The notes under the pieces: generated by a model | Seen by the model: the letters and a program-made list of their open reading frames with translations, nothing else | What the model was told of the DNA's origin: nothing | Database searches by the model: none | In this document: piece by piece, positions 211 through 31,100 of the stretch | Layout of the letters: each line of letters begins with the position of its first letter | How positions within the stretch are numbered: the first letter of the stretch is position 1 | Assembly (NCBI GenBank): GCA_003614675.1 | Contig: ML002408.1 | Coordinates: 1-33,294, forward strand | Source: Dimargaris cristalligena | Lineage: Eukaryota | Direction of reading: 5' to 3' | DNA length: 33,294 nt | Translations under genes and position numbers: made by a program

Positions 211-1650
211 TAAATCTCCCTTTAATGATAAAAAATTGGCATTCCTACCATATTCACCATTTATTCTTTCTTTGGGAGATGCCTATAGTATAAGCAATAA
301 GAATAGGAAAACCCCCTGCAACAACAACTGATAGTGGTGAGCAAGTCAGGTTTCCACAATGAAATTGAGATATGCAAAATGTATTGTGATGAGGACAACC
401 TAAAGGTGGTTGGTATGGCCTGATATATTTAGAATTCAATACAACTACAGAATTTGTAATGCAATGCCAATGTATAAATGTGGGGTGTATTTACCATTAA
501 CTTGCAACTGAGTCCTTGGTTCTACACATTTGTTGTTGGTTTACCCTGACCATATGCCTGAGACACATATTCTGCTTTTAAACTTAAGGTCAGTATACTC
601 TATATGCCATTAGGAATTTGACCCTAACAGAAAACTCTGATAAAAATACTATTTTGGGCAACACCACTCTGCTACTAGTTGCAAATAATAGCAATTAAAT
701 AAAATACTCTTAAATGATCCGCCATCAAGGTCTTGCATATAACTAACTGTTGTTGATGGGCAGTATGGAGAGGTTGTTGATTTTTGATAATATTAATGAT
801 AACCACATATATGTTGTTATTTGATCAATACATCAAAATAATGTCACCTTTGGGAAGTATCATTACCAACTGAATTCTTTTTTGACTGGTCAAATGCCAA
901 TTCCACCACCACCAGATTGGTCTAAAATGGAGCCTGTAGATGCTATCCCCATCCCCGAGTCTTATGTTATCATAAAATTCTAAACAATAATGCATATTTG
1001 AGTAGTACCAGTAATAGACTGAGTTTATCTGTCTATATATATTTATGTGTGTGTGTGTGTGTGTAAGAGTATAAAGAAGGGATGTACTGGATACTCTAAT
1101 ATCAGCCCAGGATTATAAGGAAAAAATAGATTTGTGGGACATAATGCTTTACTACAAATGTAACATAAAATGCATGCATGAAGTAATTATAATATATTAT
1201 TATGTGGTTTTGTGAATAGGATGAGTGTATGTGGACCAGATTATCAAGTAATCACAATAATTATTCTGACATGGCCGAGTAAATCCCATGGGACTAAGAA
1301 ATGGGTTTGAATGGACTTCATTACAATTTGCCTAATGCTATTATAGATGCAATTAGCCACTGAATCAACACAGCTATCTACCCATACAACTTAAAAATTG
1401 GGCAAAGTTTGGTCTTTTAGAATTCAAAATAAAGACTAAGCTATTGCCGGGTTTTGCAAAGATGTGATTATTAAATAAAGGTTTATTTGGAATGAGCATG
1501 ACCTGTGATGGCTTGTATATTAACCTTGGCAGAGTTCATTGACCAGAATTGGCCGTTGAAAGGGGCTCTGCTGGCCCTAATCGGACTTTAGTATAGTCAT
1601 GCCCCAGATTGCATTAAAGTGGCAGTGCCAGTTCTGATTATAATTTGTTG
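211..1650. repeat. CpG-depleted, AT-rich degenerate repeat or heterochromatic flank
   Basis: Only 6 CpG counted in 1-1650, versus frequent CpG after ~1650. No recognisable TE ORF, so the family is unassigned. Confidence 0.45.
1046..1064. repeat. (TG)9 microsatellite
   Basis: Read directly. Confidence 0.9.
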
Positions 1651-4600: not shown

Positions 4601-7600
4601 TATTATAAGGACCAACATTCATTCATTTATTTATTTTAAACAAAAAACCACCACCAACCCTAGCTCGTAATGTAAACCCCCATCCGATACCAGGCAATTA
4701 GATTTCTACAGCCCTTAAATGTGTCTATCCCGGTAAGCCAATGGTACATTTGGGACTCTAATTATATTAATTGTTTATCAGTACATCCATTCAACCACAT
4801 GCCTCGTTGGATAAAAAAACGGGGGCAGTTTGTAGTTAGGCTGGATATATTATCGACGTCGTTGACTCCCATACGCCCATGGTGAAGCCAGGACTTGAGA
4901 AAGGGTAGGCCCTCTGGTCTACACCTGATAAAGATTGCCAGACAACACCAGTTCCGGTAACCAAATTTGGCTAGTATAAATTCAGCTGGTAGTCTGTTTC
5001 AGGTCTAGGTAGTCGCACCACCGTCTTACTTACACATCGTACCCATGGACGACAGAATGTGGTTTTAAATTGGACCTAATTAGAGTCGCCACCAATAAAG
5101 GACGAGTCGAATATGGTCCCATTTCACCAAACGGGACTCACTCTAGTATTTCCCTAACCCCCCCCCCCTTTATTACCAACCCCCTTTATTTTCAATTTTA
5201 AATCACACGGTGCTAGCCCATAAGTGTCTACTTGACCCAAGGCGGCAATTCATATACACACTCACATAAACATTGTCTATGCAGTATCACTTTCGGTGGC
5301 TAATGCCCGCTGGCTGGATAGCTACCTGCTATAGAAATAAATTGAACACTCCGTTCGCGGGAAAAAGGGCAGGGTCGATTACGACGTAGAATCCAATCAG
5401 TCCCCGAGACTAAAATGCCAATCTTCGTTGATTCCCCCGACTACTTTACCGTTTGCCAATGAATCGCCGAAAAGGGAATAATTCAACATAAAGGGTACGG
5501 CTACTGTAGGTGGAGTTGGATAAGGGGGGAAAGGTGTGGCCAAATTTATGGATGGCTACGCCATTCATTAAGCAGTCTGAATTCACAGCTCCGTAAGTCG
5601 TTTTGTTGGATAGGCGAGGAGGGTTATATTGAATTAATGGGAGGTGGGTGTTTGGTATTTGACCAAGTTGGTTATTGGTACCGGCTGTTGATTAATCGTC
5701 AATACTGATTGTCCCACTTTCCCAACCACAGGTATATTTACTCGCCGACAGTGCCGGAGGTCGGTTTGCCGGTGCGAATTTTCCATGATACAGCAACATA
5801 ATCACCATTGGTTGACATGATCTATATTGGTTAAGGTTGTCCCTAAGGTGTTTACGTGATTCACGCTATACAGGTTATTGAGGGGTGTAAAGGGGGAAGG
5901 GATAGGTGAGAATAAGGATTTTACCGATATCCCTGAGTGAATTACTCCCACCATTATCCTGGTTTCTCATATTTGATCATAACCATGATCACTCAGGGTC
6001 TGAGCCTGTTTGGACTACCGAGCTCTCCATCCAGCTGTTAGGGACAGCCACGTCTCTCTTTCTCGGCTTAGTCTGAATAGTTAAAGCACATTTGCAATGT
6101 TTGATTATCCGACGTATCCTCCACCACCTACTCGCACCTTCTATTAATTCGGAACACTCACACACATGCCCTGGCGGCCTGAATAGACCATGTGTAACAT
6201 GGAATAACAACCGCCCCCCTTCTACAACACCTTTAAGGGACACTACCACGTACATTTGGGGAACTCAATACCCCCACCAGTCCAACGCTGGGTCAGCATG
6301 CTGCGTTTCACGTACGTCTTTCATCCCCACGTACGTATTGAACCGCCGCACAGCAGACCGTCCACCCATTTAGATCCGGCATTCCCACCCCATGTATAGC
6401 CCCGGCTCAAGGCGGGTTGTACCTTATTCGGGCGACCGTCTCTAATAATACCAAAGCGGCCCTCCATTATATGGAGCGCGCCTCCCACCCGGGAAAAGGC
6501 GAGGTGGGGGTGGGGGGTTGTCCCAAACCCTGGTCCAGCAGCATAAAAGTCCTCAGACGCAAAACAATACCAAAGATACTGCACCCCCTGTGAGGTATAA
6601 AGATATCGTTTTCGAGGGGGAGGCTGATTGCTGCAGTAGGAAGTACCAGGGAAGCCAACGCAGGGGAATGGGGGAGGGATGCGACCAGTCGCAATTAATG
6701 CAAGGGGACGGATTTGCAGATATAAATAAAATTACGAACACGGATTACAAAGGAACGATTTATCATTGCAACGGGGCTGATCAGACAAGGGGAGGGGGGT
6801 TGCGGCCATAAGTCTTGGGGTGTCGCTAAACAATATACCTTGTAACTAAGGGGTCGCATGGGAGGAATACAAGCAGAGTGCGGTGTAAAGCGGCCAACAA
6901 CCGCCACCTTTGCAAAGTTACAAATCGACCAGGAGGAGGTAAGGTATACAATGCCCCCTATCGGACATTTCGCTAGTCCATTAACCCATGGCCCAGAACA
7001 TGACGGCATTCAAAAAGTGGTTGGACCGGGAATACTCGACGAAACAACCACCACCACCCAACAGCAATCAACCTTATGACACTATATAGCTTTAGAACAC
7101 TAGGCTGACGAATTACCCAATGTATGACCATATTTTTTCCTGAAGCGGGCTGCTGGAAAGACATCAGCCATATCTTTACAGCGTTGGTCCCCTGCATGAT
7201 AAAACATTAAGATAGCAAGGGGTTAATGGCGGGACGGAATAAACGTGAAGGCCATGGAAGAGGCGGGAAATCTAAACCCCAGCCATCCTATCCTACTCTG
7301 GGGCACTCCACAGCAGCCGTCCCTTGGATGAGTCAGCCTCGATCTAGGCCAGGGAGAGAGGGCCCACTTCGCCTGATTCGATCAGCTCTAGATGGAGAGT
7401 GTGTGGGCCAGCGTAATTGAATTCAGTCCACCCAGCGGGGCTCATCCTTAAGACCTATGCTGAATCTGACTGGGTGGGTTCCCGCCACCAGCGCAGTGCC
7501 GGAACTCCCACCGGCACCACACTCCCCTCTTCCCCCTCCCTCCCTCTTTCTCTTGCCGCCGTTTCCTTTCCCTGGCCCTGGTAACCGCCCGATGAACTAG

Positions 7601-7780
7601 CATCCTCCCTGCTTGTTAGGATAAGATATGGGACTTGCACATCTAGTCGTGGCCCAGCCAAAACTGATCTTTCTTCATCAGAGTGTCTACCTTCCCACCA
7701 TTCACCAACGAATTAAGCCACCAGCCAACCATAAATGACCGTCGTCACAGCCCTCACTCACTTACTCACTCATTCATACA

Positions 7781-7796
7781 TATATATATATATATA
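7781..7796. repeat. (TA)8 microsatellite preceded by degenerate CACT repeats
   Basis: Read directly: ctcactcacttactcactcattcataca followed by (TA)8. Confidence 0.9.
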
Positions 7797-10700
7797 CCCA
7801 ATACATGTTATAATAAGTGGTTCACACCTTGATGCATCGACATACACTGCGGACTCGATTCTAGATCCTCTTATAGTAATGGTCCCCAGATGCAACCCAA
7901 AGGATCGCCCAGGAATAGTAGTGTGGACCATTCAGTGCCTGACCAAGGTTAGGGGAAAAGAGGGGAACCACTGAGCTCCCATCTGTATCCATTGAGCTTT
8001 CCCAATGCAGTGGCTCGGCGGTGGCGGCTACCCGGCTGAAGCAGGCCGCGTTACCACAGCAGCAGCCCCCCCCCCACTGGCCCGCTGGCCTTTTCCGGGT
8101 CCAACGGGAAAGAGAAAGAGAGAACGAGAGAGAGCACTTTCTCCCATTGTCGTCTTATTTAGGATTTATCAGCCAACGGAAATGCAGTAAACAATATCTC
8201 GAAAAATGAGTGGTGGCTGGTAGCCCTGGTTCATCGCCAGTCTGTTGATACCCAATGGTTCATGTACACAAAGTAGTAACCAACGTAAACAAGGACCCAC
8301 AGTGTTGTTTGTAGACACAACAGAAGTTGGTGTAATGGGCCATGGGCGCGAGTACGAATCCCCTCCCCTGCAACCTTTCGCCACCTTTGTTGTTGTGAAT
8401 TATTATGTATTGAAAAGGCCTCCAAATGTGGCCAATTATGGGCCAGCAGCTCACACTATGCAGGAATGGCATGGATCATTCATTTATTGGGATCCAAAGG
8501 TTTTCATTGGGCGATTCTAGGCCAAACTTAGTCGCCCAATATTGTTCGCTTTCTCGGAAACCGAAGACACCCCCCAGTCGAAACCTGAGGCCATCAACAC
8601 ATTATTATTAGCATCACCATTATGACGCGGCCGTTCCTGAGCTAAGGCGGCTTACTGCAAGTCCCTCCGGCTCGTGGACCGTGGGTTGCACACCATTGAC
8701 CGATTGGTAATGCGAGGTTATATATTGGCAAGACACAAGTCCCACTTGCCTAATCTAATCCCCATTTAATGGGGGCCATCTCTACTATCCCAACCCTTTT
8801 TATCCGCCAACCTTTACCTGAATGCCGGTAGGATATCTAAATCAGCCAATAGTACTGGCCACGTAGTTGACCTAGAGGGTGGACCCCAAAATCAACTATT
8901 TTAAAAACAATACAATTGGGAACGTCCATTGTTAAACAAAAAAGAAAAGGACATCATTTATTCACTGGCCACAGCCTATCCAAGCGCGATGGTTCATTAC
9001 AGCTCATGAAAAACCATTTGCTACTTAGAATTACACAGTGCCCTCCCAGCTTTTTTTCATATGCAATGGCGCTGTCCCTCGATGGCGGCGATCCTTTACC
9101 GATCACATTCACTACTTGCTTATATTTTTTGGGACTATATACACGAACAAGGTTTATTCGCAGGGCAGGTGTGAAACTAAAAGAGAAAAGAGTAGTGTCA
9201 AACCGACATGAATTAACCTGGGCTGGTTAGTATAGACGGGTCTGCCAAGATTCATGGGAAATATAAGCAGCCATTCAATCTCCACAGCAGTACCTCTTTG
9301 GTGGCCCACCAGGTCTGACTGCCAATCACTTTGGTTACACTAAAACCCCCGAACTAACCAATCAATAGGAGCAACTCGAGGGAATTATAACCCTCTAACC
9401 GTGGCGGGGGAACGTAAGGATACCCCCTTCCACTTGCTAACGTAACGGCGGGCCACCCGGCGATTGGTGCGGGCGACGCGGAACAAAAAGAGAAAAACGC
9501 CAACCCGCATCGTTCCGCCCATCTGCCTCTATAATTCACGGCACTGATCTACCCCAGCGTCTGCCAATTCTATTCAACTCAATTCAAATCCAGCCGCCAG
9601 TTGACCTTCTCCGCCCTGTTTAGCCGAGTTTGGTCCCAATGTGGGCAAAGAAGCGTATAAGGAAGTTTGCCATCAGAGCGGGCTAAGAATCCGGTTGGAT
9701 CCCTCCCTCCTTCCCTCGGGTCTTATCTATTAAATGCCCCTGGTCTACCCGTTTGGATAGCCGTCATAATTTTAGATCACCACTCTAAAAAAATGGCATA
9801 TGGTCGGCGCTATACCGACTCGGAGGCTTAATCTATGAGAAATTCCGTACTATGAGCCTACCACCGAGGTGGTGTATAATAGGATAACCCGGACAATAAA
9901 CAAAATCAAACTCCGGTGGTGATGGACCTTTCATCGGATTGGCGCTGAATTTGGGACCAAGTCTTAGTCTTTACCTACCCTGGCTGATTCCGAAAGCCCC
10001 ATATAGGAGACCAGTTGTTTTAATGACCTACCCCCCCCATACATACACACCTCTATATACGGTGTATGGGTGGGTGGATATCAGTAGTGCTGCAATACGT
10101 GCTCTTTTACCTATATTCAAGGGGATTAAATGGCAGTTCCCATGGTGGGTTCCGGGCTCACACGGGAGTTTGAATTTCTGTCACATTGCACTCTTAAACT
10201 CCATTAGCTACATTGGTAAACAAACGAGGACATCGTTTACTAATAAATGATGATTTCACCTAATCGGCCTCTCGTAGGCGGTTGGGGGAAAAGAAGGACA
10301 AACATAATGGAAAAATATATATATGCCAAAGGATGTTTGATTGGGATTGTGATTAGGAAAAATGAAGTTCAAGTGGATAAGAGGGGAGTGATTTGTATAC
10401 TACTGAAATGCCAGGCCTTCAACAATGCGATATTTAGGTTATCCGGCAATCCTTTGGGCTGCAATCAAGTTTCATGACTAAATAGCCCCCCCCACCGACC
10501 TACAACTATCCATGTCTCTTGGAAAACATTTCCAAACCGCATGTCCTATTCAGGGCTGAAATGGATAAGTTGAAGGATCTAAGGACCATGGAGGTTATAT
10601 GAAGAAGTCCTTAACCGACCCTTTCCCGTTCCAAGTCGGTTATTTTTAGCCGACCATCTAAGTGATTGGTAATTAGTCATGATAATGGGCTTTTCCCAAT

Positions 10701-12405: not shown

Positions 12406-13278
12406 TTAATTGGCGTAGGCATTGCTAAGGGGACCGTAGCCGGAGTACGAGTGGGTGCGGTAGCGGTTGTGAGTGTGGGGCATCGAGGGGCTCTCGGGTA
12501 CGCTGTAGGGCGACATCATGGGCCGGGAACCCATGTAGTGAGGGGAATGCGGGGAGTAGGGGAAGCAGGGGGCGTGGACCTCCATGGCGGCTTGACTTAG
12601 GCCTAGGCGACGCTTATTACTCCGGGAACGGACATTGGTGTGGGTGCGAAGGTGCTGCATCATATTGTCCTGGCGCGAGAAGCGCGAGTTGCAGCCGGGG
12701 AAAGAGCAGGGGAAGTTCTTCTCACCAGTGTGAACGCGGTAGTGCCGCGACAGATGGCCGCTGGTGGTGAATTTCCGGCCACAGCCCTCAAACTGACAGG
12801 TGTGACGGCGGGGTGTGTCCTTCTGCTGGCCGACTGAGACGCCTTCAAACAAATCGGCGGACGAGGACTTGGGGCTCGACGGGGCGGTGGAGCAGGGGGT
12901 GATGGGGGACAGGTAGAATTGGTTAGAGCTGACCTGGTTGGAGGGAGTGATGGGAGTGGCGGGAGGGGTCAACTGGGTGGTGGTGAAGCCCAGGTGGCTG
13001 GCGATGGTGTCGAGACTGGGGAGGCGCAGGCCGTGGGGGGCCTCGGTGTGGTGGACCTTCAGGGAAGGGAAGAAGGGAAGCTCCGGGGGAGGAGTGGCAC
13101 AGGGGGTGTCATCGTCATCGGAGTGACTTCCCTGGCGGGGACTCCGGGGGGAAGCGGGGAGCTCGTCGTTCAGGAGGCTGACGACGGAGCCATCGGCGTT
13201 GCGAACGAAAAAACTGGAGTCGCAGGCAGCGGTATCCAGAGTGATCTGTTCCTTGCGGGCAAGAGCCATGCTGTACAT
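12406..13278 (-). CDS. NRG1: Nrg1-family C2H2 zinc-finger transcription factor (probable repressor), 290 aa, intronless
   Basis: Two tandem C2H2 fingers at aa 159-213 (nt ~12640-12804): CQFEGC..FTTSGHLSRHYRVH-TGEKNF-PCSFPGC..FSRQDNMMQHLRTH. The FTTSGHLxRH / TGEKN / FSRxDN signature matches yeast Nrg1/Nrg2. Basic RSRSNKRR follows the fingers (NLS-like), flanks are S/T/P-rich, the ORF is GC-rich, and it ends in TAA. The second ATG (13269, AGCATGG) has a stronger start context. The symbol denotes family, not proven orthology. Confidence 0.95.
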   Translation of the reverse strand: MYSMALARKEQITLDTAACDSSFFVRNADGSVVSLLNDELPASPRSPRQGSHSDDDDTPCATPPPELPFFPSLKVHHTEAPHGLRLPSLDTIASHLGFTTTQLTPPATPITPSNQVSSNQFYLSPITPCSTAPSSPKSSSADLFEGVSVGQQKDTPRRHTCQFEGCGRKFTTSGHLSRHYRVHTGEKNFPCSFPGCNSRFSRQDNMMQHLRTHTNVRSRSNKRRLGLSQAAMEVHAPCFPYSPHSPHYMGSRPMMSPYSVPESPSMPHTHNRYRTHSYSGYGPLSNAYAN

Positions 13279-13481
13279 GTTTAATGTGTAGATATGGGGG
13301 GAGTAGGGGATACGAGAAATCGTGGCTAGGTAGGAAGGAAATGGAAGGAGACTGAAAGTTTCGGGTATAGTGTAGATTTAGGAATAGAATAATATATGTA
13401 TATATATGAAGTGAATATATAGAGAGAAGGAGGTGGGGGTACCAAAGAGTAGAGGAGAGGTAATGTGGGAGCGGGGTTGAA

Positions 13482-13491
13482 CTTATATATA
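13482..13491 (-). promoter_or_regulatory. Alternative proximal TATA-like element (TATATATAAG)
   Basis: About 205 bp upstream of the ATG on the coding strand. Could simply be a TA run in the 5' UTR. Confidence 0.3.
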
Positions 13492-13613
13492 TGTATAGGG
13501 GAGGAAAAGACAAATGGGATATGTGGAGGGAGAGGTGTGTGTAAGTCGTCGGGTGTCAAAGGGATAGCTAGATGATGTGCTGGAACAAGAGTGGCAGGGC
13601 GGCCGAGGGCATC

Positions 13614-13621
13614 TATTTATA
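13614..13621 (-). promoter_or_regulatory. TATA box (TATAAATA) of the C2H2 gene
   Basis: Canonical TATAWAW in GC-rich context and correctly oriented. It is ~40 bp downstream of a consensus CCAAT box and followed by an ATG-free C/T-rich leader. Confidence 0.6.
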
Positions 13622-13652
13622 TGTGGGCGAGGGGGAGGCCACCCAGCTAGCA

Positions 13653-13659
13653 AGGGTCC
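13653..13659 (-). promoter_or_regulatory. Nrg1-type binding motif GGACCCT
   Basis: AGGGTCC on + strand equals the S. cerevisiae Nrg1 motif GGACCCT. It lies between the TATA and CCAAT boxes. Confidence 0.4.
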
Positions 13660-13660
13660 G

Positions 13661-13669
13661 TGATTGGCT
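13661..13669 (-). promoter_or_regulatory. CCAAT box (AGCCAATCA; HAP/NF-Y consensus)
   Basis: TGATTGGCT on + strand, at typical spacing upstream of the TATA. A second CCAAT in the opposite orientation is at 13676-13680. Confidence 0.55.
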
Positions 13670-13919
13670 GGCTCGCCAATAAGGAGGGCAAAGGGAAGGT
13701 CGACGCATATACACACCCCAGGGGGAAAGGGCACCCACCACCCGTTCAGCACTTCAGCCCGTATACAGTGGGGGCCATTGAGTATATGCATTAGTAGTGG
13801 CGACAACCAGAGAGGGCCACGGCAGGGTGCTCTGATTCCCGCTGGGCCTTCCCTCCCCCCTCGTTCAGCCCTGCGCGGTTGACTGAAGCCTAGGTTGCCT
13901 AATATGGAGATGGTGGGTA

Positions 13920-14100
13920 CTCTCTCTCTCTTTCCCTCTCTCTCTCTCTTGCTGTGATTTGCTCTGCTTTTCCTCTTCCCTCCCTCTTCTTTTTTTTTCT
14001 TCCCTACCTTGACTATCACCACCCTGTCTCTGGCTATATCCCCATTAGATGTACCTCCCCTCTCCTTCCGGCCCGACTGTGGCCTTCTCCTCTTCCCAAC
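13920..14100. repeat. Polypyrimidine/(CT)n low-complexity tract
   Basis: (CT)n and C/T runs on the + strand, read directly. Confidence 0.8.
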
Positions 14101-14125
14101 AAATGTAGGCCGCGCGATGACCTTC

Positions 14126-14162
14126 ACCAATCAGTGAGCCATTAGAGTCAATGGCCAATCAG
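14126..14162 (+). promoter_or_regulatory. Tandem CCAAT boxes (ACCAATCAG, GCCAATCAG) 28 bp apart
   Basis: Two extended HAP/NF-Y consensus matches in the same orientation, ~850 bp upstream of the ATG. Confidence 0.45.
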
Positions 14163-15277: not shown

Positions 15278-15293
15278 TATATATATATATATA
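15278..15293. repeat. (TA)8 microsatellite
   Basis: Read directly. Confidence 0.9.
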
Positions 15294-18200: not shown

Positions 18201-21200
18201 GTATTTGAGAGTAGGGGCGCGCCCCCTCACACGCTACCCCAATAGGTTTTGAGCGAAACCGATGCTGCGCCGCCGAATATACCACGGCCTGGTGCGACTT
18301 TTCCCGGCCCGACGCATTTCCGAAATGGTCGATATAGTGCTGCCACTGTTGAACCACCCTTATTTCCCCGCTTTCCCGTTCCGCTGGTTCGGGATTCCGT
18401 CTATTGGTGTTTGATCTGACTGTTGGGGAGATGTAGTGTGGCCCTGTTGACCTTTCAAATGGAGAGATAGCCCTCGATTTCATTCGAAGCGTGACTCCAC
18501 CACCCGGGGCAATCCCTCAAAAACCTAGCACCACCGCTCGGTCGGGTTATTTAGGGCTGGCTTGCCGCGGTCCGGGTATTCACGGCCCGACCAGACTGTG
18601 TTTGCTTAGTTCCGGACGCTTAGCCTCACTCTACTGGCTGCCTTGCTCCCAATAATTTAATGTATAGGGGAGGAGATGACAGCGCTCGAGCGAGAAGTAG
18701 ATCAATTTCAGGATTTTGCAGCTGACATGCAAAACGTATACTATCCCCTGTCATTTTCACTGTGCTGCTTCATTTGCGAAAAGAAGGCGCTGATGAAGAA
18801 GGAGCGAACCCCGTTCACTAGTATATGCCTGGGGGGGGGGTAAGTTAGCCAAACCACGTCTTGAATGGTTTAATACATTCGAAGAATAGTCCAGGAGTAA
18901 GTCAAGGTTTGCACCTATTGAGTAGGGGGCAATACGGCCCAACCACCAGCGAATGTTTCTTATAGCCAGCCTCCGACGAGCCATTACTACTGGTGCGAGG
19001 ATCCTTCACCACCGTGCTCCTCGCGCCCCTCCCTATTTTTTTTGCTGGGCCTTCATCATTGGCGGTTGGTGATTTTACCCAACCCTTTCCCGCCCTAAAA
19101 ACCGGAGGGTACAGCGGGGCGTGGGTAAGATTCAAGGGTGAAGAAATGTGGGGAGCTTCAGCAACCAGGCCAGGCCCCACCATCACACCATGACGAAGTT
19201 ACGTAACCGACAATCAAATCCCCTTCCTCCTTTCTTCCACACCCTCTCTCTTGGTTGTACTATAGATAGGCTGCAGACAAAAGCGAGAGCGGTAACTAGT
19301 GGAGCCGTGGGCCCCAGTAATAAGGCAGGAGAGGTCGGGGAGCGGTTGAAGGAGGTTATGCAAATTTGGCTTGGGTGGCTGCTATAGTAGAAGCGTGATA
19401 TTCGGACCATTCGGAGACAAATCTAAAACACCATCATTCTCCTGGGAAGGGAAGCAAAGGTCTAATAGCTAGCCCAATACCTCTCGCTGCTGGACCGGGT
19501 GGTGTGAAGGAAAGGGGGGAACAGCACAGTGATAGATGCGGTAGATGGTGGAAAATAGGCGTTTTAACCATATAGGAGCGATCGTTGCGGGCCTCACCCT
19601 GGTCGGAAGGCCAAGCCGTAAACAAAAAGTACACTAAACAACCTAGGGGAAGTGCTTAAACTTGGCGCATCAAGTTCCCCCAGCCGGGGGATCTAAACAT
19701 ATTTTTCCGCGACCCCTAAAGACTAATATAGTTCCCTTGTGCCCAAACCATCCTATTTTTGGTGATCAACAGGAGACCGCCCATCTTTCCTACGACAAGA
19801 CGAGTGGTGTACGGGCGTTTTAGTTCTTATGTTATTTTATATATATGTATTAACATTATCGAAGTTCCGAATCTTCCCCCCCCCCTAGTTTAATCACTGG
19901 CCAAGGTTATGGAGTCTGTTAATGGTGAGCTATTCGAGTGTGCTGGGCCATATACCCATTATCCAAGTTAGACAATACCCCGTGGTAGAGACTATGGGTA
20001 TTCGGTGGAATCCAATGGCGGGAAGGGGAGCGTTAGAACAAATGGGGTCAGTAAGATTGAGTATGGCTAACAATCCTGCATCATGACACAAGGATCCTTC
20101 ACTCTCTATTTCAATTGTAGCAATACACCGCAATTTAGGAGTGTGCATCGACCCCCCCGTCCTTTATCTCACCCCCTTCATTCTTGTTACACACTTACCT
20201 GGCTCCTCTTTCCTCCCGTATATAGCCCACAACTTAAGCGCTCCTCAGATCCTTCATCAGGGTATAGTAGACACACTTAGACTCTTTTTTATTTAGAAAA
20301 AAAGCCGAACGGCCCCACTGCTATACTGTATGTGTGTGAACCACCCACCCAATCTATATAGACGAGCAGACAATAGTGAGGCCGGGGAAGACACAGCATA
20401 ACTGAAGTGTATTCCAATATGATGTGAAAGGGTCACCCCAGCAGCATAGTGAAGTAGTGACACGACTCGAGGCAGGAAATCTCCTCCTCTTCTCGAAGAG
20501 TTCAATAGCCAGTCCGCGTGTGTGCGTGGCAGCTAGTGAAGTGTAATCAATAAAGAGAAACCGTTGTCTATTTTTAAAACCGCATTGTTCTATTTGAACC
20601 CCCCCTTTCTTTCCCTTTTCACTCGGACCTATCAAAGCGCGTCAGCCTAAGCAACAGTAGTGTGTATTTCCAATCTATTGTCGGGTCCGTTTTGGGCCAT
20701 CGGCGACTTTCTTTTTATCGTCAGATGTCAACAAGGTCGGAGAAGATTAGAGGGGGAATATTTATTTCCCTACCGGGTTGTCTCTCTGCCCCTTCGTCTT
20801 ATTATTATTCCCCCGCGCCTCAGCCACACTGTGACTCAAGGGCTTTCCGGAGTGTGTACCCTATGGCTTGTATTACTGGTCGGGGCTAGTCACGGTGGTT
20901 TCCCATCCCTTATCTCCCATTTTATTTTTGCGTGTTCTTAGACTCACCAACCACACGCCATATAGCCATTGGCGCCAAGCGGGGATATATTATGTGCTGT
21001 GGATTGTGGTGTATGGCTGGTTAAGAAAGAAGAGCTGGAGAAGAAAGAAAGAAAAGGGGACATGCTCCTTCCTCCCTTATTACCCTGGCTAATTCACAGT
21101 AGCTCACGCCCACCTTCCATCGTAGGGCAGCTATTGGTCCCCGCGCCGATGGAACGGGTTGTAACACCACCACCATCACTACTGGGCTCCAACACCCCCC

Positions 21201-24085
21201 TCCCCACTCAGTTCTTTTACCTTACTGGGGGTTTAACATCTTAAATTCAGTCCTCTTCTTATAGTCACTGTAGTCGTGTATTTTTTGGGGGGTCGGTGTA
21301 TCAACTATATAACGATGCTAAAAGGATCCTAGATCACGGTAGTGTATCAAGTCCCTTAAAAGGTTAAATGACGGGTACACGAACTATGGTCGATCATTGT
21401 AAGCCTTCAGTACCTGGCAGTAAGGGTGGGGGGCTTCGATCCGCATGCCTTGTCCCTCTGGGCTCCGCATGGTTCACGGCTAGAAGGGGAAGGGGGAGGA
21501 GGAGCTTTTTCACTCGTGGAGATGTAGGTGGCCCTGGTTAAGATTCCCCCCTCCTCTCCTTCCTTTTTGTCTTTCGTCACCACATTGAGGGTTAGTGTAG
21601 TTTAGGTTGTGGCTCCGGAAGGTCATTGGGCACTGAGCGATACATTTGCGGAGCGCTGAATGAGACTAAACTGCCCTGAGCTTCTTCACCTGCGGAAGAA
21701 GAAGAAGGCGGTTGGAAAACTTCACGAACAGGGTGGATACTGAAGGTTACTTGGTTGATCAGTCATGTCCAAGTGCCGCTGTGAAGCATTCAAAGTCGAG
21801 AATGTTGCAGCTTAAGGAGATACAAAATATAAAGAAGAATAAGAAAAGTAGAAAGGGACATGGAAGGCCAAGAGAGTACCGGGGATACTTTTTTAAAAAT
21901 TTTAAAAAAGACTGCTTCGGATTCCCCTACCAACACGCCCACCACGAAATTCCGGGACTTCAGTAGTAACCTGGCTTCGCCTGCGAACGGAAGCGTGTGT
22001 TACCGATCCCAGGAGCGGGTCTGATCCGCTGTTGTTAAACCCGCTTTTTCGCTAAAAGTATTCGGTTCCGGATTCTTCGCGATTGTCGCAGGCATTGTCA
22101 TCCTGAATTAACGGCGGTAATAACCCCCTTTAAAACAATACCTGATTTATCAACACCCTAAACATATCAATTCGCCTTGAAACCCCCTCCCCCCTAATTA
22201 GTTGAGATTGGCGATAGCCAAACCCCACCTCTTTCCTAATTCCCCAACGGGTCCACTGTAACCATTGGCCTGGACTTTTGTCCTTAGCCTGGCCCGCTCA
22301 CTCTCCCATCCCTGACCGCGTGCTATATGACCGTCTCTGGGTATCTCCTTCCGTTATTGACCTTCACTGAATCCTTAGTAAGTATGATACATCTGTATAG
22401 AGGGGGGAGGGAGGTCAAACTCGAATTTTAGGGGAGTGGGCCAATCCCTATAGTATTTTCCCAGCCGGGTACTCCTGCCCCATAAAATGAAAGTGGGATT
22501 ATTGGGCGAGACAAATTAAGATATAGGGCCAGGCTAGGTGTTCTCATCGCATCCCCTTTACGTGCCCGACTCTCTATATAGTGGTAGGGTCCACCAGAAT
22601 AAGTGGACCAACTCGGCAATCTGTGTTGGACTCTAGGACTTCCAGATCGCAGGAATGGGAACCGGTGATCCACTCTGCATCCTTCAAAGGGACTTTTCCA
22701 CCCGGCCCTAAAAAAATCAGGAAGATGCTGCAGGGTGCAGCAGTCGGAAGACGGGTGGTGGAAAAAGGGGCGATGGGAGCTATACTATTCTGAAATAGAC
22801 ATGGTTATATGAGCTGGGGGAAGATTTCCGGTGCAATGTCATCCCGAAGCCAATACTTGGAAGGACTTTCCATTTGTTACTATTCCGCCGGCGCATAAAA
22901 AAGGCGGGGTATACCTTGCATGTTTACGATAACATAAAAAACGATTCAGAGACAGTGGAATGCCAGACAACCATGAAGCATTGATCCCGCAGATAGAGCC
23001 CTTCTCGTGCAAGTCGACACCAAATGGAATGGAATATTGGAAGGTGCTTCAACCATGATCTTCGAGGCAAGGTGCGTGTAAGATTGATTATTCCCTGTTA
23101 GGTATGAATTGGTTTTGGGTAACCCTTTTCCCCAGTCCTCGAGCGACTTACCCATGATTGCCCGTTGGTCATATTCAACGTGGCTTCTTGGAAGACAAGG
23201 GTGCTGGGGAGGGATGTACGTGCTTTATGGTCCATTGGCGATGTAATATAATGATTAGGTACGGCCCTCTATATTCGCCATTAGCCATGGCCTCTGGTAG
23301 GGGAAAATGGGGCAGTCTGGGTGCACTTTTGATTGCCGAAGGTTCCTCCTGTATATAGTCACCGGAAAGTTAAAATAGCATGCTCCCCTTGCTTAAATCC
23401 ACGTGTCCGTGTTATCCTGGAATTGCTCCGTCCCCTGTTTATTATTTAGAGAAGGTTAACGACAATCAGGTTGAATTCAATTATTTAGATTGTTGTGTTG
23501 TGTTTTTTTTTTGATGAAGACGTTTTCGCATTTCACTTAGTGGGCGGGGAAATGTTACGAATACACGCACACACACCGCACCAACAATGAACAGGTTCCG
23601 GGATTCACTATTCCCAAGCACATTGTGAAGGATTGGAGTATTTACTCACAGCAAATACTCCCCACAATTGGCATTCCCCCTTTGCTAATTATTTTTAGCT
23701 TGGTTGACCGGTTTATTGGGGGAGGGGGGGCTGCTGCTGTTGCTGTTCCCCGCTGGTAACCCTGCATCCGTTTATAGAGCTAATGTTGGCCCAAAGTCCT
23801 GGTGCCAATCTGAAACAAGTGGCCAATAGAATCTAGAAGGGTGGGGAGTGGAGTAAGTGATTCTTGTACACACAGTTGGCGCTGTTTGCCGCCCCCCCTT
23901 TCTTCTTGATTCGCTGTCCTTTTTTCAGAGGCTGCACTCACTATAGGAATCGGTTAGAAGTGACCTAACCACATGGCTCTAGCTTCTTAATCAGCTTGAC
24001 TAAGCAGCCCCCCAGAATGGGCAATACACCCTTTTTTAAGTGAATGGCCAGCATCCTTCTTATTTCTTGCCCGACCTTTTTAAAT

Positions 24086-24223
24086 TGGGTGAAATTCAGC
24101 CCAGCTATATAAGGGTTTACATTATACGTGTATGGGAGAATATATGGGAAAATGGTTTTTAACTAGTAATATTGGCCCCATTCAATGGATTTTTCGTTAT
24201 GCAGCTTGGATGAACTTCTCCCA
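24086..24223 (-). repeat. Isolated inverted fragment of the ~241-bp repeat found at the right end of the window
   Basis: The reverse complement of 24123-24223 aligns ungapped with 33194-33294 (13 mismatches in 101 by hand). 24086-24132 also aligns with 33044-33090. Confidence 0.9.
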
Positions 24224-27200
24224 ATAGTAGTCTAATAGAGACTGGGCCACTCCCTTGCTACCCAGTCTACTATGCCTAGGCAACTCTCACCACACACCTA
24301 GTCATTGATGAGGTGGTCTAGCATAGCCCACGTCGGCTCTGATCTCTAATTCCCAGTATCCTAGTGATGCGTGTATATGTTTCGCCCTGCCGGTGCTGAA
24401 ATGGTTGGTGGTGGAAGGTGCAGGGTACAACCTAATTAATTAAATGTGGAGTGACTCCACAAGAAGGGAATATGGGGGGAGGGGTGTGTACTACTGACTA
24501 GCATACTGGATTAATAATTATACCATTTTCATCTGAAACTAACCCGCGCTCTGCCTTTGCATTGGCTCCAATGGAATGGTCATCATCCGCACCCCACTGT
24601 TACCCCTCTCACCCTTTCTTCTCTCCCACTCTCTATCACTCTGGCTTATCTCCCGATGGTCCAAACTCAAAAAAGCCAATTATCCCTTTCCAGGTAATTC
24701 ATGATTTCGTGCTTTAGTTGCCTAGTTCAGTGTAGGGCGGGAGTGGCCATGTTGTCGATATTGTTTAGCCTCTCCCATTACTTCAGTCGTTCTCTATAAA
24801 GGACTAGAAGAATATCGGGTAATGGTGCGGGTCATTTACTAGGTGGATATGGTGTTAGTGGCGTTTCACATTTTAAAAGATTACTCACCATACAAGTGCA
24901 GATCAACCGGCGCCCTCCACCGCCTTCTTTAATCCCTCTAGAAGTATGATTGCCTAGACCGGGGTACATATAGAGTAATTTTGACATTTTGGGTCCAGGC
25001 ATGTGTAAAATATCATGACTAGAGTCTTTATCAACTTTCTCCCACCGCCAGTATCACCCTGGCCATGGTGGGCTTTCTAGTTGTTAGACTATCAGTTGGC
25101 ACTGTTAACGGTAGTTAGTCGACCGGTGGATCTTTTCCCTAGACCCCGACTTGCATATTCTACCCAAAACTTAATTCCCATCTTGCCTCAGTGTATCCAG
25201 ACTCTCCGGAGAGTCCCACCACCCTTGCGAAAAATTAGATGCTGAACATGTTATACTGAGAATGCCCAGAAAATAGGAGGCACCCATATCATCCCAAGCC
25301 CATGATGCTGGGTGTCTTCTATTCACCGAGTGGCTTAGTTTAAGGAGGTGTATAGTCAACCATTGGATAGTGGTCATTTTATTTTTGTTCACCGGCTGCT
25401 CTATTTTTGGATAATGATGCCAGCAATTTAGATGGCTAGAGCCGGGGGAATTTTTTCATTAATGTATGTGGAAAGGTAATGAACAGTTTCCCCTCCCCAG
25501 TCCCCTAGGTGCAGGCTCATTGCTATTGCAGTCGGCTTGGTTCACAGAAGGAGAGTAGTGTACAGTCACATTTAACTATGACCCCTTTTTCTTCCGACTC
25601 CCTAGGTGAAACGGGTCCATTCACCTTTGCATCCCTCAGTCTCTTTTCTAATCGATAGAGAACTGATCAAACTTTAGTGTTGGCCACAGCCCCATTCTCT
25701 TGCGGGGGAAGGAGGGTAAGGGAGGGGGGTTTCCGCCCTAAGCCGAAACAAAAGTAAAGTACATTGCGTGGCTGATGAAACCAAAGTAAACAACACCCAC
25801 CTAGTCAGTACGCTTTATTATCTTTATGCATTTATTTATTTATTTACACTACCTTGGCCAACACCAAATACACTTCCTTCACTCAAAGTGTCTAGATGAG
25901 ATTTGAAACGCCCACTGTGGCACACTTCCACAAATCGCGCTGGGTTCACTCAAAAAAACTACTACCTACCTCCGCTTTATTTTTTTCCCTAGGCCAGCTC
26001 ATTGGGTTAACCGATTGGTTGCATTATATGCTAGCTTTGGGGAGGGGGAGAGGGTGTCCTTCTGGTCATAACCGGTTTATTAGCCAGTTGAGTGTATACA
26101 ACACCAGAGGACGAACTGTAGCCCCGCACGCGTAATTCTTCGACTTTGGCAACACTGGGCAAATCGAGGTATATGGGACTTTGCTTTGGGAGCGTAGCGA
26201 GGGGGTGTCCCTTTAGCTCTACAGCGCAGTCCCCCACCCTTCCCCATTGACGCAGAGTGAGGGAGGTATATCGATGCAACTGTTGGTCCTTCGGAAATTC
26301 AAGTAATTGGCTTATAAAAGAGGGTCTGCTTTCCCCAGTAGTGTACCTGGTAGGGGAATGAAGAGGGGGAGCCCACCTGAACAGTTTGAAAGGACTTGTT
26401 TCGTTGGTATATTCACTGTGCTTGAAGCAGTTCAGTAGCAAACTAGACGCGTCGCCCTACTGAACTCTCTCTTCAACAGTTCACCAGTGTTAGGTTGAAT
26501 CGGGTAGTTTCTAGCTGTAACCCAGAGAGTTTATTCGATACCCCATTACCGATGGCTGATAAGGCAATGTTTCATATTTTCATGATTGGTTGGTCACTAT
26601 TTATATAAAAAGCCATTTATTAATTTCCGTTATTGCATAAAAAAATGAATTCCGACAGGGCTAGCTAAGGAGCAACGAGCTATATGGTACCTAGGCTATC
26701 AGATCCGCTCGGCTCGGTTCAGCGTGAGGTTGCAACCTCTCCTTATCGTATAGTGCAATCTGGAACGGGGTGATTAAGTAGGGTCCGGGAGATTCCATGG
26801 GATATTCTTCTAGAGGGTAAACAGGTAGTTAAACTAAACTATACTTCCGCGCTGCTCGCAACACTATGGGCGATTACCACCGGCCTCAATTGGGGAATAT
26901 CCAACATTTATCAATCGCCAATTATTAATAGGGATGTAATTCACGTTTCCGTTTTTTATATCATTTTAGTGAGATAATTTGACCCGACTCATGTGCCACG
27001 AGATTGTTAATATAAAATCGCACCACCATTACCGGTTATTAGCGAGCTTCCAATCTTCACGAAAACCGCGGGAAGACGCCTGTGTGAATATTTACCCTCT
27101 TTTGGAGCGTAAGACGAAACGCGAACCCGGGAATGGTGGCACCAATAAATCAACTTATTTTTTATAGCCTGCTTGAATCACATTAACTAAGCTCAGTTAT

Positions 27201-28657
27201 AAGATAGCCCTGGAGACCCAAATGGTCAGTTCAGGTTGCTGACAAACCATCGGGCAGCATGGCCTGCCATTTAACCACATGCCTTCATGGTACACCGTGA
27301 AGGTTAGAATACAGAATAGTATGGGGCCCACTAGGCATTTCGATAAACGTTCTAGATATAGGCGTGTAGTCCTGCTTCTTTTGATCCAGGCCGAAGCAAT
27401 GGGCCAAATTAGGGAGGACTGTAGGCATTATCCACTTACTTCCCCTTTTTTTCAATAGACACTGAATTGGTGTTGTAAATAGGAAAGGTCCATTGGTGTG
27501 GAAACGAAAGACGGTAGTTTGCATCCAGCATTGAGCGTTCGATAGCAATGCACCGATACCAGTAAACTGTGACACACCATGTATACATGGAACACTCAAA
27601 AATCACCCAGAAACCTCGTTTATTGATGCTGAGAAGTGAAACCTTCTAATTATGCAAATGCGGGGCTTTGGCAGGGGGTGGTGGATCCGGCAGTGAGTTG
27701 ACAGCGGATACTCAGCAATGTAGACAAATATCCGTGAAGTCTTGTCAATTAGGGGGGTGGAGCGGCTTCGCAGTTCCGCATTGAGCCGATTGTAGTGCTG
27801 CTCGACTAATTAGGGCATATACGTGTGGGTAGAGTGCACATCATCCATACTATACATTATAATTAGTTAAGAACACTTATCAGGGTCACTATCCAAGTTG
27901 GAAAGGTGACAGTCGGGCTGTGATTGCTGAAAACAGCTCAATATTTACACAATGTGATATTAAACTAAACCAAGGGGGTTTCTCTCAGTTCACCGCGACA
28001 CTCGGCCAGGTGCAACCTAGCTACTGATTTCATTTTCAACCCTTGGTGCAATTCCAGTGTAGCTGGCTTAAACCTTAGACCAGGGTTGTAAGTGGCCTAT
28101 ATTAGTGGCTACTAATAAAAATGTCGCATTAGGAGGTACCTTCATTGATATTCGGCTTCCTCCCCCCTTTTTTTGGCACCTCTAACTGGTAAGATTGACC
28201 TTCCTGAACGGTAGCATAGTCCGGACAATCGGAGCCTATCCAGTCAATACACCATAGTGCAGCCGCCGCACTTTTACATTGCTCTCGGTTGCTGCTGCAG
28301 TATCTGAGCTCCCCCCTCCATTGTTCCTCCCCCCTCCCCATACTGACTGTGCTGCAATACTCCACGCGACACTCCAGGAAAAGCCTTCCGCACGTTGGGG
28401 AGATTCTCCCCGGTTGCCACATTGCTATTACCAAGTATGGTCTAATAACCCTGGGCCGATCCCTAGACACGTCGGCGGACTACCCTGTTGTGTCATTATG
28501 ACTAGGTGGGGTAATCGACTATCGGAGCCAAGTTGGGTATGGTTACACCCTACTAGCAATACACTCCTTGGCCTGACATTCTAGTCCTTAACTGCCTAAT
28601 TAGCCATTCTCCCGTATTTTGTATTTACCGCCCGCCTTTACGCTTTAGGTGAAATAG

Positions 28658-28698
28658 GGTGGTGGTGGTGCTGGATAATAATAATAATAATAATAATA
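28658..28698. repeat. Compound microsatellite (GGT)4 ... (ATA)8
   Basis: (GGT)4 at 28658-28669 and (ATA)8 at 28675-28698. Confidence 0.9.
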
Positions 28699-31100
28699 AA
28701 AAAGGCTAATTAGCACTAAAATCACGCGAATTGAAGCCGTGGATCCTATATTGGTCGTTGTTCCCAGCGACAGTGGTTGACTATTAGAATATCATTAGTA
28801 TCAGCCCAATTTGGTATGCTACCGAAATTCACTAAAGAATGTGTCACTTTGATTGCACTACTTTTGCGTGCTCCAGAAACGGCAGAGTCATCTGGTACAT
28901 ATTTCCGGCTCCATGTCGAATATCTAAAGTAGGGCAGTTGGGTACTGCTTTTTCGGCTCGACCCCCTTGCTCTAGTGGACGGCGTTCCTCACTTAATATT
29001 CTTACGATTAAAAGGGGTATCCCCCCAGGAAATTATCCAATACAATCCCTCAAAGCTTATTTAGATTGTTCATACAGGGGGCTGCAATAGAGCGGTTTCA
29101 GGAAAGATTCTGCAATGGTAGGCGCCGAGCCACTCGCTGAGGACCGTTGCAGGCCTATATCATCACTTTAGTACCCAGTATAATGCCGGCCATTCCCAAA
29201 GAAAACGCCGATGTAATATAAAATATTCACAGAAATTCGATTTTTATGGAAAAGACCGTGCGTAACTGGGGACTACCATCCGTCGGTTAACCAATAAAAT
29301 GGATCCCATTAGTCCGTGATTGGCTGCAACTTCGGATTCGAAAAGATTATTCGATTGGGTGCCCTCGGGTCGGAGGTATAGGATAGGACAAGTACATAGG
29401 TGCCGCCAATAGATAAGGAGGGGATGGGGGAGGGGCTCGTAATTTAAGCGAGAGGCTCTTTGCACCCCCCCAAAAAAAGGAAATAAAAGAACGAGAGCTA
29501 GCCTGAGTTAGTCGCATTACTTACGTACCCTTTCGGATTTCTCTTACATTTTGCCGCCGATGGGCAACTAGAAGGTATTGGTGCAGCCCATTTCCCATCT
29601 GCCCCTCTGTTCACACAGATGCTTCTCAAAGGGGAAAGCCCTCCGACCTCATATTATTGCTTCCCCTTCTTTCCTTTCTACATGTTATTTTCCCTGACTC
29701 CCTGGCGCCGAGCCACTTGTATCCACTGTAGCCTTACGGTGCACGAATAGGAGCGAATCGGCACCAGATCTATCCTGATATACCCTGGGATTTTTTCAGG
29801 GTCGTTTACCACCAAGGATTGGCTGGACACTATTTTGGTCAGCATTAGATTGGAGGGGGCTCCTCGAGTAACATGGTAGATACTATAATAAAAAGGATAT
29901 CAGGTCATTTTCACGCCGATAAATTTATTGGATCGGTGGGGGCACTTTAACCGTTGGGAAATTGACCCAGCTATGCCTCCTACCGCTCGCTAGCTCGTGA
30001 AAGCTTCCATGGGTCCAACTCAGGCAATGTCCCCTTGGCGTTAATAGCCACTTACCAAGCCTTCCGACCGAGAACTTACTATTGGCTTGTACAATATCTG
30101 CTTTCTAAACTCGACAAATGGTAGTAAGCAATCCAATGGACTTCTAAATACAGAAATATAACGATTCCTTTACAATTACATTCACTTGCTGTACGTTATT
30201 CAAGCCACACCCCTTGGAATATTCTACATGTTAGTGGTACCAGCGCAATACTCAGCCTATTCTACACCTCGGAGACCAATGGGGGCATGGTCTACATCTT
30301 GGATATTGGCCACTGAGTTGGAGGGTTTTCCTATGGATTATAGTGGTCTAACCAGTCACTTAAGGTATTTCAAAAAGAAACCCAGATTACTAAGCGGGCT
30401 AGAAGTATGACGTCGAGTATCAATTCAGATATATGTCAAAAAAACACATGGAAATCACATTATTCTGGCCGAGGATTGCATTTGGTCAACGCACTGATAT
30501 GTCCCAAATTTCACTGATTGTTGGGCAGCAGCATTGTGTGGCATGAACGAGGTATACTGAATTGTATTTTATGGATATAATTTAGCTCATTGGACGTATC
30601 GATTTGGTATCAACAAAGAAGGCGTAGAGTGGTCCCGTTTTATCACAAGTTGTATTTGCTAAAAAAGGGCCACCTTGTATCCAATTCCTGGGCTAATCAA
30701 TGTCGACAGAGATGCAAGTTACAAAGTACGGCTTTATTATCGATTTTATTATGTTAATCAATATTTAGTAATTATCGGCCTAGGCTGTAGTTTGGGGCGA
30801 CATCACCTTGCTTGTACCAGGCTTAGGAATGCGGGGTATGGGTTTGATATCATTTTCGGGATCTTTTGATATTGATATAAAAGGACCCGACCTATAGGTA
30901 GGAGTATGCTCAAGGACATGGATAAAATAGATTTAGGACCACTGACCATGATTGATGATGATAGACATGGGTACAGAAATTGTGGATAGTATGTTTTGAA
31001 GTGCCCTGAAACAACTTGTGAAGGTACTAATTGCTTGATTAAAGAAATATTCATATTTATATTAGATACTTCAATGAATTGGTGATTACTTTCTTTAATA

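What the first reader, a model, noticed from the sequence alone, without database searches (positions are those of the whole stretch)
1650..30800. A ~29 kb CpG-protected, almost TE-free domain devoted to one 873-bp transcription factor gene
Seen: CpG is nearly absent in both flanks but common across ~29 kb. That span contains one credible CDS, ~17.5 kb upstream and ~10.7 kb downstream non-coding DNA, and only one 138-bp repeat fragment I can detect. It is dotted with GC-rich, CCAAT-, GA/CT- and TA-rich patches. Established: fungal promoters are typically around 1 kb or less, and Nrg1-family repressors control morphogenesis and stress responses in yeasts. Inference: this is an unusually large cis-regulatory domain, kept unmethylated and purged of insertions, resembling the methylation valleys around animal developmental regulators and possibly containing distal enhancers on both sides of the gene. 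Best candidate for an undescribed system here.
Basis: partly seen in the sequence, partly recalled or inferred. Interest (0 to 1): 0.7.

Follow-up and report, generated by a model that had tools for sequence, protein, structure and literature searches.

The report
Gene desert around fungal Nrg1 regulator
A lone Nrg1-like transcription factor gene in an early-diverging fungus sits in about 29 kb of gene-free DNA, as several related regulator genes in this genome do, which probably reflects oversized control regions; its CpG content and scarcity of transposons are just the genome's normal state, not a protected island.

Summary
The description holds; the 'CpG-protected, TE-purged valley' does not. 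The window is one whole contig of a 30.65-Mb Dimargaritales fungus. CpG retention is the genome default: six size-matched contigs have o/e 0.78-0.88, CpG-retaining runs reach 90 kb, and the window's non-coding o/e (0.69) is below ordinary spacers (0.76). Repeat density is ordinary (1 insertion seen, 1.1-1.7 expected). The flanks are the anomaly: CpG-erased repeat islands, noted before in this genome by the scan. The gene desert is real: no second gene by codon model, spliced-gene search (best 8.0, nulls 6.4-19.8) or Pfam (0 of 101 frames). It is not unique: 8 of 10 other C2H2 genes have at least 8 kb gene-free upstream against 4 of 72 unselected genes (p 6e-7); bHLH/GATA genes only 1-2 of 8. 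One other locus is as large. Best reading: an extended cis-regulatory region like those of Candida NRG1/UME6 (3-7 kb mapped), but in a spacer several times longer. Regulatory function, and any distal enhancer, is inferred only: no RNA, chromatin or relative-genome data were available.

The parts
1..1650 (.). Left CpG-erased flank; 1-215 is a piece of a high-copy ~590-bp repeat, 215-1650 is CpG-poor (o/e 0.14) and AT-rich but matched nothing else in the genome
1650..12405 (.). Downstream gene-free, single-copy DNA (10.7 kb) with ordinary CpG level
5650..9650 (.). Second GC-rich (0.48-0.53), CCCCT-, CCAAT- and TA-run-bearing patch about 3-7 kb past the stop codon; candidate downstream element or non-coding promoter; no significance test, function not shown
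12406..13278 (-). Intronless CDS of an Nrg1-like two-finger C2H2 protein, 290 aa (P0001)
12640..12804 (-). The two C2H2 fingers (residues 159-213), recognition helices TTSGHLSRH and SRQDNMMQH
13279..13621 (-). Likely leader and core promoter: no ATG for 333 bases upstream of the start, TATAAAT at -343
   Evidence: transcription start not mapped
13622..19300 (-). Proximal upstream zone, GC 52-54% for 6 kb, CCAAT boxes at -389, -402, -853, -881; most likely seat of the regulatory elements (inferred)
19300..30890 (.). Distal upstream gene-free DNA, GC falling to 44-48%, ordinary CpG level
24080..24229 (.). Single copy of a high-copy ~140-150-bp AT-rich dispersed element; no CpG-dead halo around it
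30890..33294 (.). Right CpG-erased flank: two copies of the ~590-bp repeat (31113-31700, 32196-32790) and two of the 140-bp element (32957-33099, 33187-33294)

Best explanation
Two ordinary things side by side. (1) The genome is unmethylated by default; a DNMT1-type enzyme methylates CpG in nests of repeats, whose CpGs decay to TpG/CpA. The two contig ends are such nests, so the stretch between them looks like an island without being one. (2) The Nrg1-like gene belongs to a class of C2H2 regulator genes that in this genome sit behind 10-24 kb of gene-free DNA. Most likely this DNA is an extended cis-regulatory region: many condition-specific factors bind over several kb upstream (densest in the GC-rich first 6 kb) and integrate signals into repressor expression, as mapped for C. 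albicans NRG1 and UME6; scattered functional sites keep deletions and neighbouring genes out, while most bases are neutral spacer that takes small insertions at the normal rate. Shown: default CpG state, ordinary repeat density, absence of other genes, association with C2H2 genes. Inferred: methylation itself, regulatory function, which parts of the 28 kb act.
For: CpG default. BAH + C5-methylase gene of DNMT1 type at G000:C729. Among 14 pairwise alignments of the ~590-bp repeat, CA/TG is the commonest double mismatch (180; next 36) and copy CpG o/e is 0.04; all 9 fetched loci of that repeat have CpG-dead zones, 5 of 6 loci of the 140-bp element do not. Repeat-restricted CpG methylation in fungi is established (PMC13297926, passages). 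No second gene: segment model best 12.1 vs reversed-sequence null 14.5 apart from the reversed gene; spliced search best 8.0 vs nulls 6.4-19.8, while the same search found hidden intron-rich genes scoring 29-118 in 5 of 19 other gaps; Pfam 0 of 101 frames; no Rfam or tRNA hit; splice-donor word GTAAGT depleted in other regulator deserts. Class effect: upstream at least 8 kb in 8 of 10 C2H2 genes vs 4 of 72 unselected genes, p 5.7e-7; one of those 4 is itself a small C2H2 gene (C3:37813). GC tends to fall with distance from the start in most of the 10 other loci profiled. Precedent: PMC4374957, PMC3912905, PMC5559454, PMC7793994 (passages).
Against: No direct sign of function: motif densities (CCAAT, CCCCT, MVCCCT, SYGGRG) are within about 20% of ordinary spacers and no 6-mer stands out strongly (top z 4.4); insertions are not purged. 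The class effect did not carry over to bHLH/GATA genes (1-2 of 8, p 0.42-0.11), and the C2H2 set is related by descent and was picked on long contigs. The longest gap in the unselected sample (16.1 kb, C9) lies between two metabolic/transport genes. In C. albicans 2.9 kb suffices for NRG1 regulation (PMC4374957), so most of 17.6 kb may be idle. The CpA context also shows excess C/T change in the repeat (0.137 vs 0.04-0.07), so the flank decay may not be pure CpG methylation.
Confidence: 0.58

Rival explanations
1. Mostly neutral spacer: the gene-free DNA is unconstrained sequence that accumulated or remained after loss of neighbouring genes; only about 1-3 kb next to the gene regulates it. The link with C2H2 genes would be inherited layout or lower deletion rates rather than current function.
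For: Composition, motif density and insertion rate are those of ordinary spacers; a 16-kb gap occurs between non-regulator genes; bHLH/GATA genes show no significant excess; gene loss is named as a cause of long promoters in post-duplication yeasts (PMC3912905, passage).
Against: No coding relics detected; neutrality does not explain 8 of 10 vs 4 of 72, nor that the long side is upstream in all 8, nor the GC gradient towards the start.
Confidence: 0.25
2. The gaps hold transcribed units that my models cannot see: long non-coding RNAs, very long UTRs, or tiny micro-exon genes; the GC/CCAAT/TA patch at 5.7-9.6 kb would be their promoter.
For: This genome hides intron-rich genes from simple models (5 of 19 gaps) and earlier notes report micro-exon genes; the downstream patch resembles the proximal promoter in composition; UME6 has a 3-kb 5' UTR (PMC4374957).
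Against: Spliced search stays at null level in the window; the ATG-free leader is only 333 bases and a TATA-like box lies at -343, which argues against a very long scanned leader.
Confidence: 0.12
3. One reading: a specially protected unmethylated valley, purged of insertions, around a developmental regulator, as in vertebrates.
For: Sharp CpG borders on both sides; 0 CpG-dead 500-bp bins in 178 kb of other regulator gaps vs 3.6% in long unselected gaps, a weak hint that large repeat nests avoid regulator gaps.
Against: No methylated background to be protected from: CpG retention is the default, runs reach 90 kb, the window's o/e is below average, insertion density is ordinary; long contigs of a 2220-contig assembly are repeat-poor by construction.
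Confidence: 0.05

Closest known systems
Extended upstream regions of Candida morphogenesis regulators (C. albicans NRG1, UME6, white-opaque and biofilm regulators; C. parapsilosis Efg1 targets)
   Same: Same gene family (Nrg1) with a long gene-free upstream region; regulator genes have above-average upstream regions; Efg1 binds the NRG1 intergenic region and spreads over more than 5 kb at CZF1 (PMC4374957 abstract and passages; PMC3912905, PMC5559454, PMC7793994, PMC12333994 passages).
   Different: Scale: mapped elements reach 2.9 kb (NRG1) and 6-7 kb (UME6), and the longest C. parapsilosis intergenic bin reaches 11.5 kb, against 17.6-20 kb upstream plus 10.7-12.4 kb downstream here; lineage is Zoopagomycota; no binding or reporter data here.
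Repeat-restricted CpG methylation and CpG decay in fungi with DNMT1-type enzymes
   Same: CpG-dead repeat nests in a CpG-retaining genome, CA/TG decay signature, BAH + C5-methylase gene present (PMC13297926 passages, there described for Basidiomycota and some Mucoromycota).
   Different: No methylome here; some extra change at CpA; the depleted zone extends about 1.4 kb into sequence with no detectable repeat match.
Vertebrate DNA methylation valleys/canyons and gene deserts around developmental regulators (recalled; no call)
   Same: A regulator gene alone in a long gene-free, CpG-retaining stretch.
   Different: Valleys are exceptions in a globally methylated genome and are CpG-enriched and transposon-poor; here CpG level, run length and repeat density are the genome's norm.

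Membership tests
Nrg1-type C2H2 repressor | Two C2H2 fingers with TTSGHLxRH and SRQDN helices shared with proteins named NRG1 and with yeast relatives | tested here: met
   helices match P0072 and P0099 (source name NRG1) and yeast P0094, P0117; no own-genome paralogue of 14 has them; clade support weak (88/86, includes long-branch C127)
Nrg1-type C2H2 repressor | Acts as a repressor of morphogenesis/stress genes | not testable with these tools
   Sources name the closest hits 'transcriptional repressor'; function not tested
DNA methylation valley / CpG island | CpG level above the genome's non-coding background | tested here: not met
   0.69 vs 0.76 short spacers, 0.74 long spacers, 0.75 other regulator gaps
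DNA methylation valley / CpG island | Exceptional length in an otherwise CpG-depleted genome | tested here: not met
   29.5 kb vs 30 of 30 kb in 5 of 6 size-matched contigs, 47.5 kb (C80), 90 kb (C3)
DNA methylation valley / CpG island | Depleted of transposon insertions | tested here: not met
   1 insertion seen, 1.14-1.72 expected, P 0.49-0.68; low power
DNA methylation valley / CpG island | Measured lack of 5mC; Polycomb/H3K27me3 marking (recalled) | not testable with these tools
   No methylome or ChIP data
Extended fungal regulator promoter (Candida type) | Long gene-free upstream region next to a regulator gene | tested here: met
Extended fungal regulator promoter (Candida type) | Regulator genes as a class have longer upstream regions | tested here: inconclusive
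   Met for C2H2 (8 of 10 vs 4 of 72), not for bHLH/GATA (1-2 of 8)
Extended fungal regulator promoter (Candida type) | Several factors bind and condition-specific elements lie kilobases upstream | not testable with these tools
   Motif counts uninformative; no ChIP, reporter or relative-genome alignment
Animal-type distal enhancer landscape | Elements that act over more than 5-10 kb, position-independent, with looping | not testable with these tools
   No chromatin or Hi-C data
Repeat-restricted CpG methylation (flanks) | CpG loss with TpG/CpA signature confined to repeat nests, DNMT1-type gene present | tested here: met

The most novel reading that the evidence does not exclude
Dimargaritales, an early-diverging fungal order with a 30-Mb genome, has evolved 25-40-kb regulatory gene deserts around its signal-responsive C2H2 factors, with true distal enhancers acting from 10-20 kb upstream and from downstream (the 5.7-9.6-kb patch), an animal-like regulatory architecture outside animals.
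Probability: 0.2. Interest if true: 0.7.

Novelty: new member of a known kind. Interest (0 to 1): 0.3.

Why it matters
The CpG part does not matter: it is the usual unmethylated background between methylated repeat nests. The gene-desert part is of modest interest. Distal enhancers are usually described as an animal innovation absent from compact unicellular genomes (PMC5429095, PMC5560861 passages), and the mapped fungal precedent stops at about 7 kb. A small zygomycete-grade genome in which most sampled C2H2 regulator genes have 10-24 kb of empty upstream DNA is a ready test case: one ATAC-seq run or an alignment with two sister species would show whether fungal cis-regulation reaches that far. 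I found no paper on this in four searches, which cover only the open library.

Tried and rejected
Expression: no RNA holder was listed for 11000-16000, so no reads were laid; this says nothing on expression. Relatives' DNA: the genome tool holds no relatives; the metagenome scan gave 8 loci on contigs of 1.3-10 kb, too short or too distant to test conservation; the contigs of the two closest orthologues could not be read, so conservation of the gap is untested. (1650-17000) was not scored; smaller pieces were. First count of long upstream gaps (11 of 18 vs 6 of 72) was discarded after the spliced search found hidden genes in 5 of 19 gaps; the revised count is used. C113 was dropped from the C2H2 set (weak hit, no coding segment at the place); C147 (no coding segment at the domain, next gene about 6 kb away) was counted as short; C71 is ambiguous (score 20.1). 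Motif and 6-mer enrichment gave nothing decisive. Long ATG-free leader: rejected, only 333 bases. Tandem repeats: one (ATA)8. Rfam, tRNA: none. PDB search gave only generic zinc fingers. Papers opened without useful passages: PMC4739763, PMC8075579, PMC2900288, PMC8265631. No supplements were read; supplementary intergenic-length tables of the Candida papers could raise the known upper range. Look-ups of earlier notes found no report of regulator gene deserts.

Full report
Setting. The window is the whole of contig G000:C201 in a 30.65-Mb, 2220-contig assembly. Its one clear gene, 12406-13278 on the minus strand, encodes a 290-aa protein with two C2H2 fingers. The best hits are from Dimargaris verticillata (54% over 93%) and Dispira simplex (47% over 98%), then Kickxellales and Mucorales, so the organism is a Dimargaritales fungus. 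Earlier notes name a species; I did not test that. The finger helices TTSGHLxRH and SRQDN are shared with proteins that sources call NRG1 and with yeast relatives, and with none of 14 own-genome paralogues; the tree groups them with weak support.

The CpG observation. CpG o/e is near zero in the first 1.5 kb and last 2.3 kb and 0.3-1.0 between. But this level is the genome's default. The six contigs next in size rank (first 30 kb each) have o/e 0.78-0.88. The longest run of CpG-retaining 500-bp bins is 29.5 kb in the window, 30 of 30 kb in 5 of those 6 contigs, 47.5 kb in C80 and 90 kb in C3. The window's non-coding o/e is 0.69, against 0.76 in 149 kb of short spacers, 0.74 in 98 kb of long spacers and 0.75 in 178 kb of gaps at other regulator genes (that last set includes C80 and C50 stretches later found to hold genes). 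There is no island.

The flanks. They are the special domains. They hold copies of a ~590-bp repeat (1919 and 1076 candidates in the first looks, 40 scored each) and of a ~140-150-bp element (957 candidates, 39 scored). In 14 pairwise alignments of the longer repeat, CpG o/e is 0.04 and CA/TG is the commonest double mismatch (180, next 36), the mark of CpG decay on either strand; C/T change before A is also raised (0.137 vs 0.034-0.071). All 9 fetched loci of this repeat have CpG-dead zones; 5 of 6 loci of the short element do not. The genome encodes a BAH + C5-methylase protein of DNMT1 type. Repeat-restricted CpG methylation is established in fungi (PMC13297926, passages). Methylation itself is inferred. 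Eight earlier notes on other pieces of this genome reached the same reading; they are AI notes and not evidence, and I tested the point separately.

Purged of insertions? No. The interior has one insertion (24080-24229). Genome searches of 1650-10300, 14500-24050 and 24300-30850 found only the window, and a BLAST of the whole window against a 688-kb sample plus 24 repeat loci found nothing else inside. The rate is 0.35 per 10 kb, against 0.40 in short spacers and 0.45 in other regulator gaps; 1.1-1.7 insertions were expected. Power is low. Long contigs in a fragmented assembly are repeat-poor by construction.

Is it really gene-free? Yes, as far as sequence can tell. A codon model trained on other contigs gave the gene 105 and nothing else above 12.1, with a reversed-sequence null of 14.5 apart from the reversed gene. 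A spliced-gene search gave a best other score of 8.0, against 6.4-19.8 in six simulated and 15-16 in two reversed nulls. The same search found hidden intron-rich genes scoring 29-118 in 5 of 19 other gaps, so it can see such genes. Pfam matched 0 of 101 stop-free frames of 70 aa or more (101 of 107; six overlapping the gene were left out). Rfam and tRNA scans were empty. Very small genes and non-coding RNAs remain possible.

Is the gap unusual? Among 72 uncensored genes in 351 kb of unselected contigs (C195-C200, C3, C9) the median upstream distance is 1.7 kb and the maximum 16.1 kb; the window has at least 20.0 kb upstream and 12.4 kb downstream to the contig ends. After correction for hidden genes, 4 of 72 have 8 kb or more, one of them a small C2H2 gene found blind (C3:37813, 14.9 kb). 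Of 11 other C2H2 loci fetched (from 51 matches, chosen for room on long contigs; C113 dropped), 8 of 10 have 8 kb or more: C18 24.0, C152 18.5, C80 15.3, C73 14.4, C125 at least 11.7, C587 at least 10.2, C264 10.1, C30 9.8 kb; C220 and C253 have 1.0 and 2.6 kb (Fisher p 5.7e-7). C18 (about 36 kb with one gene) and C73 (at least 30 kb around a tandem pair) match the window. An independent set, 4 of 11 bHLH and 4 of 13 GATA matches on the longest contigs, gave only 1-2 of 8 (p 0.42-0.11). By recall, not by a call, the short-gap genes look like housekeeping factors (TFIIIA-, Sfh1-, Cbf1-like) and the long-gap ones like signal-responsive regulators (CreA/Mig1-, Msn2-, Loz1-, NsdC-like). Limits: small sample, related genes, home-made gene models whose non-coding training set included parts of the other regulator gaps (not the window), and a 16-kb gap between two non-regulator genes on C9.

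Anatomy. There is no ATG for 333 bases upstream of the start, a TATAAAT at -343 and CCAAT boxes at -389, -402, -853 and -881. GC is 52-54% for the first 6 kb upstream and falls to 44-48% beyond; most other regulator loci show a similar drift. A second GC-rich patch with CCCCT, CCAAT and TA runs lies at 5.7-9.6 kb, downstream of the gene. Over the whole stretch CCAAT (3.9 vs 3.4 per kb) and CCCCT (4.6 vs 3.8) are only slightly above ordinary spacers, and GA and TA runs are below.

Mechanism. Most likely (0.58) the gap is an extended cis-regulatory region: several condition-specific factors bind over kilobases upstream and set the level of the repressor; scattered sites hold the spacer open while most bases drift. 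In C. albicans the NRG1 promoter spans 2.9 kb with separate response elements and UME6 elements lie up to 6-7 kb away (PMC4374957, abstract and passages); Efg1 binds the NRG1 intergenic region in C. parapsilosis, whose longest intergenic bin is 2.7-11.5 kb (PMC3912905, passages); regulators bind unusually large regions likened to super-enhancers (PMC7793994, PMC12333994, PMC5559454, passages). Rivals: mostly neutral spacer (0.25), hidden non-coding transcripts (0.12), a protected methylation valley (0.05). No step of the regulatory model is shown directly: no RNA run was listed and no relative's DNA could be aligned.

Verdict. The headline claim, a CpG-protected and transposon-purged domain, is a figure-ground error. 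What remains is a real gene desert around an Nrg1-like gene, one of several around C2H2 regulators in this genome, known in kind from Candida but several times longer and in a distant lineage. Four searches of the open library found no paper on such deserts in early-diverging fungi (listings only). New member of a known kind; interest 0.3. The bold reading, true distal enhancers over 10-20 kb in a small fungal genome, stands at about 0.2 and would deserve 0.7.

Noticed in passing
G000:C9:29920-33258 (-) (L125:1-3258): One open frame carries an isocitrate/isopropylmalate dehydrogenase domain followed by aconitase domains, possibly a fusion of two lysine- or leucine-pathway enzymes; it has 16 kb of gene-free DNA upstream.
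   Followed up: no
G000:C73:13588-15757 (-) (L081, L082): Two tandem C2H2 genes with the same match score and finger layout inside a gap of at least 30 kb; recent duplication or assembly artefact.
   Followed up: no
G000:C18:about 10900-47400: A single C2H2 gene with 24 kb upstream and 11 kb downstream gene-free, the largest such gap seen; next to a 6-kb CpG-dead block.
   Followed up: partly
G000:C3:37813-38196 (-) (L115:7813-8196): A 128-aa one-finger C2H2 protein (Pfam E 0.006, below cut-off) with 14.9 kb gene-free upstream, found in the unselected sample.
   Followed up: partly
G000:C30:1-10668: A GATA gene (9640-10668, +) with no coding segment in the 9.6 kb upstream by the simple model; not run through the spliced search and not counted.
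   Followed up: no
window 215-1650: CpG-poor (o/e 0.14), AT-rich DNA with no match elsewhere in the genome: old relic or methylation spread from the repeat at the contig end.
   Followed up: partly
window 5650-9650: Promoter-like patch (GC 0.48-0.53, CCAAT cluster, TA run at 7779-7796, GA run near 8110-8135) with no gene attached.
   Followed up: partly
window 32196-32790 and related loci L056-L064: Copies of the ~590-bp repeat show raised C/T change at CpA (0.137) besides CpG loss, a faint RIP-like bias also reported in earlier notes.
   Followed up: partly
P0001 residues about 24-39: A short N-terminal motif (around VVSLLNDE) recurs in Dimargaritales, Kickxellales, Basidiobolus and Mucorales orthologues; possibly a co-repressor contact (inference).
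   Followed up: no
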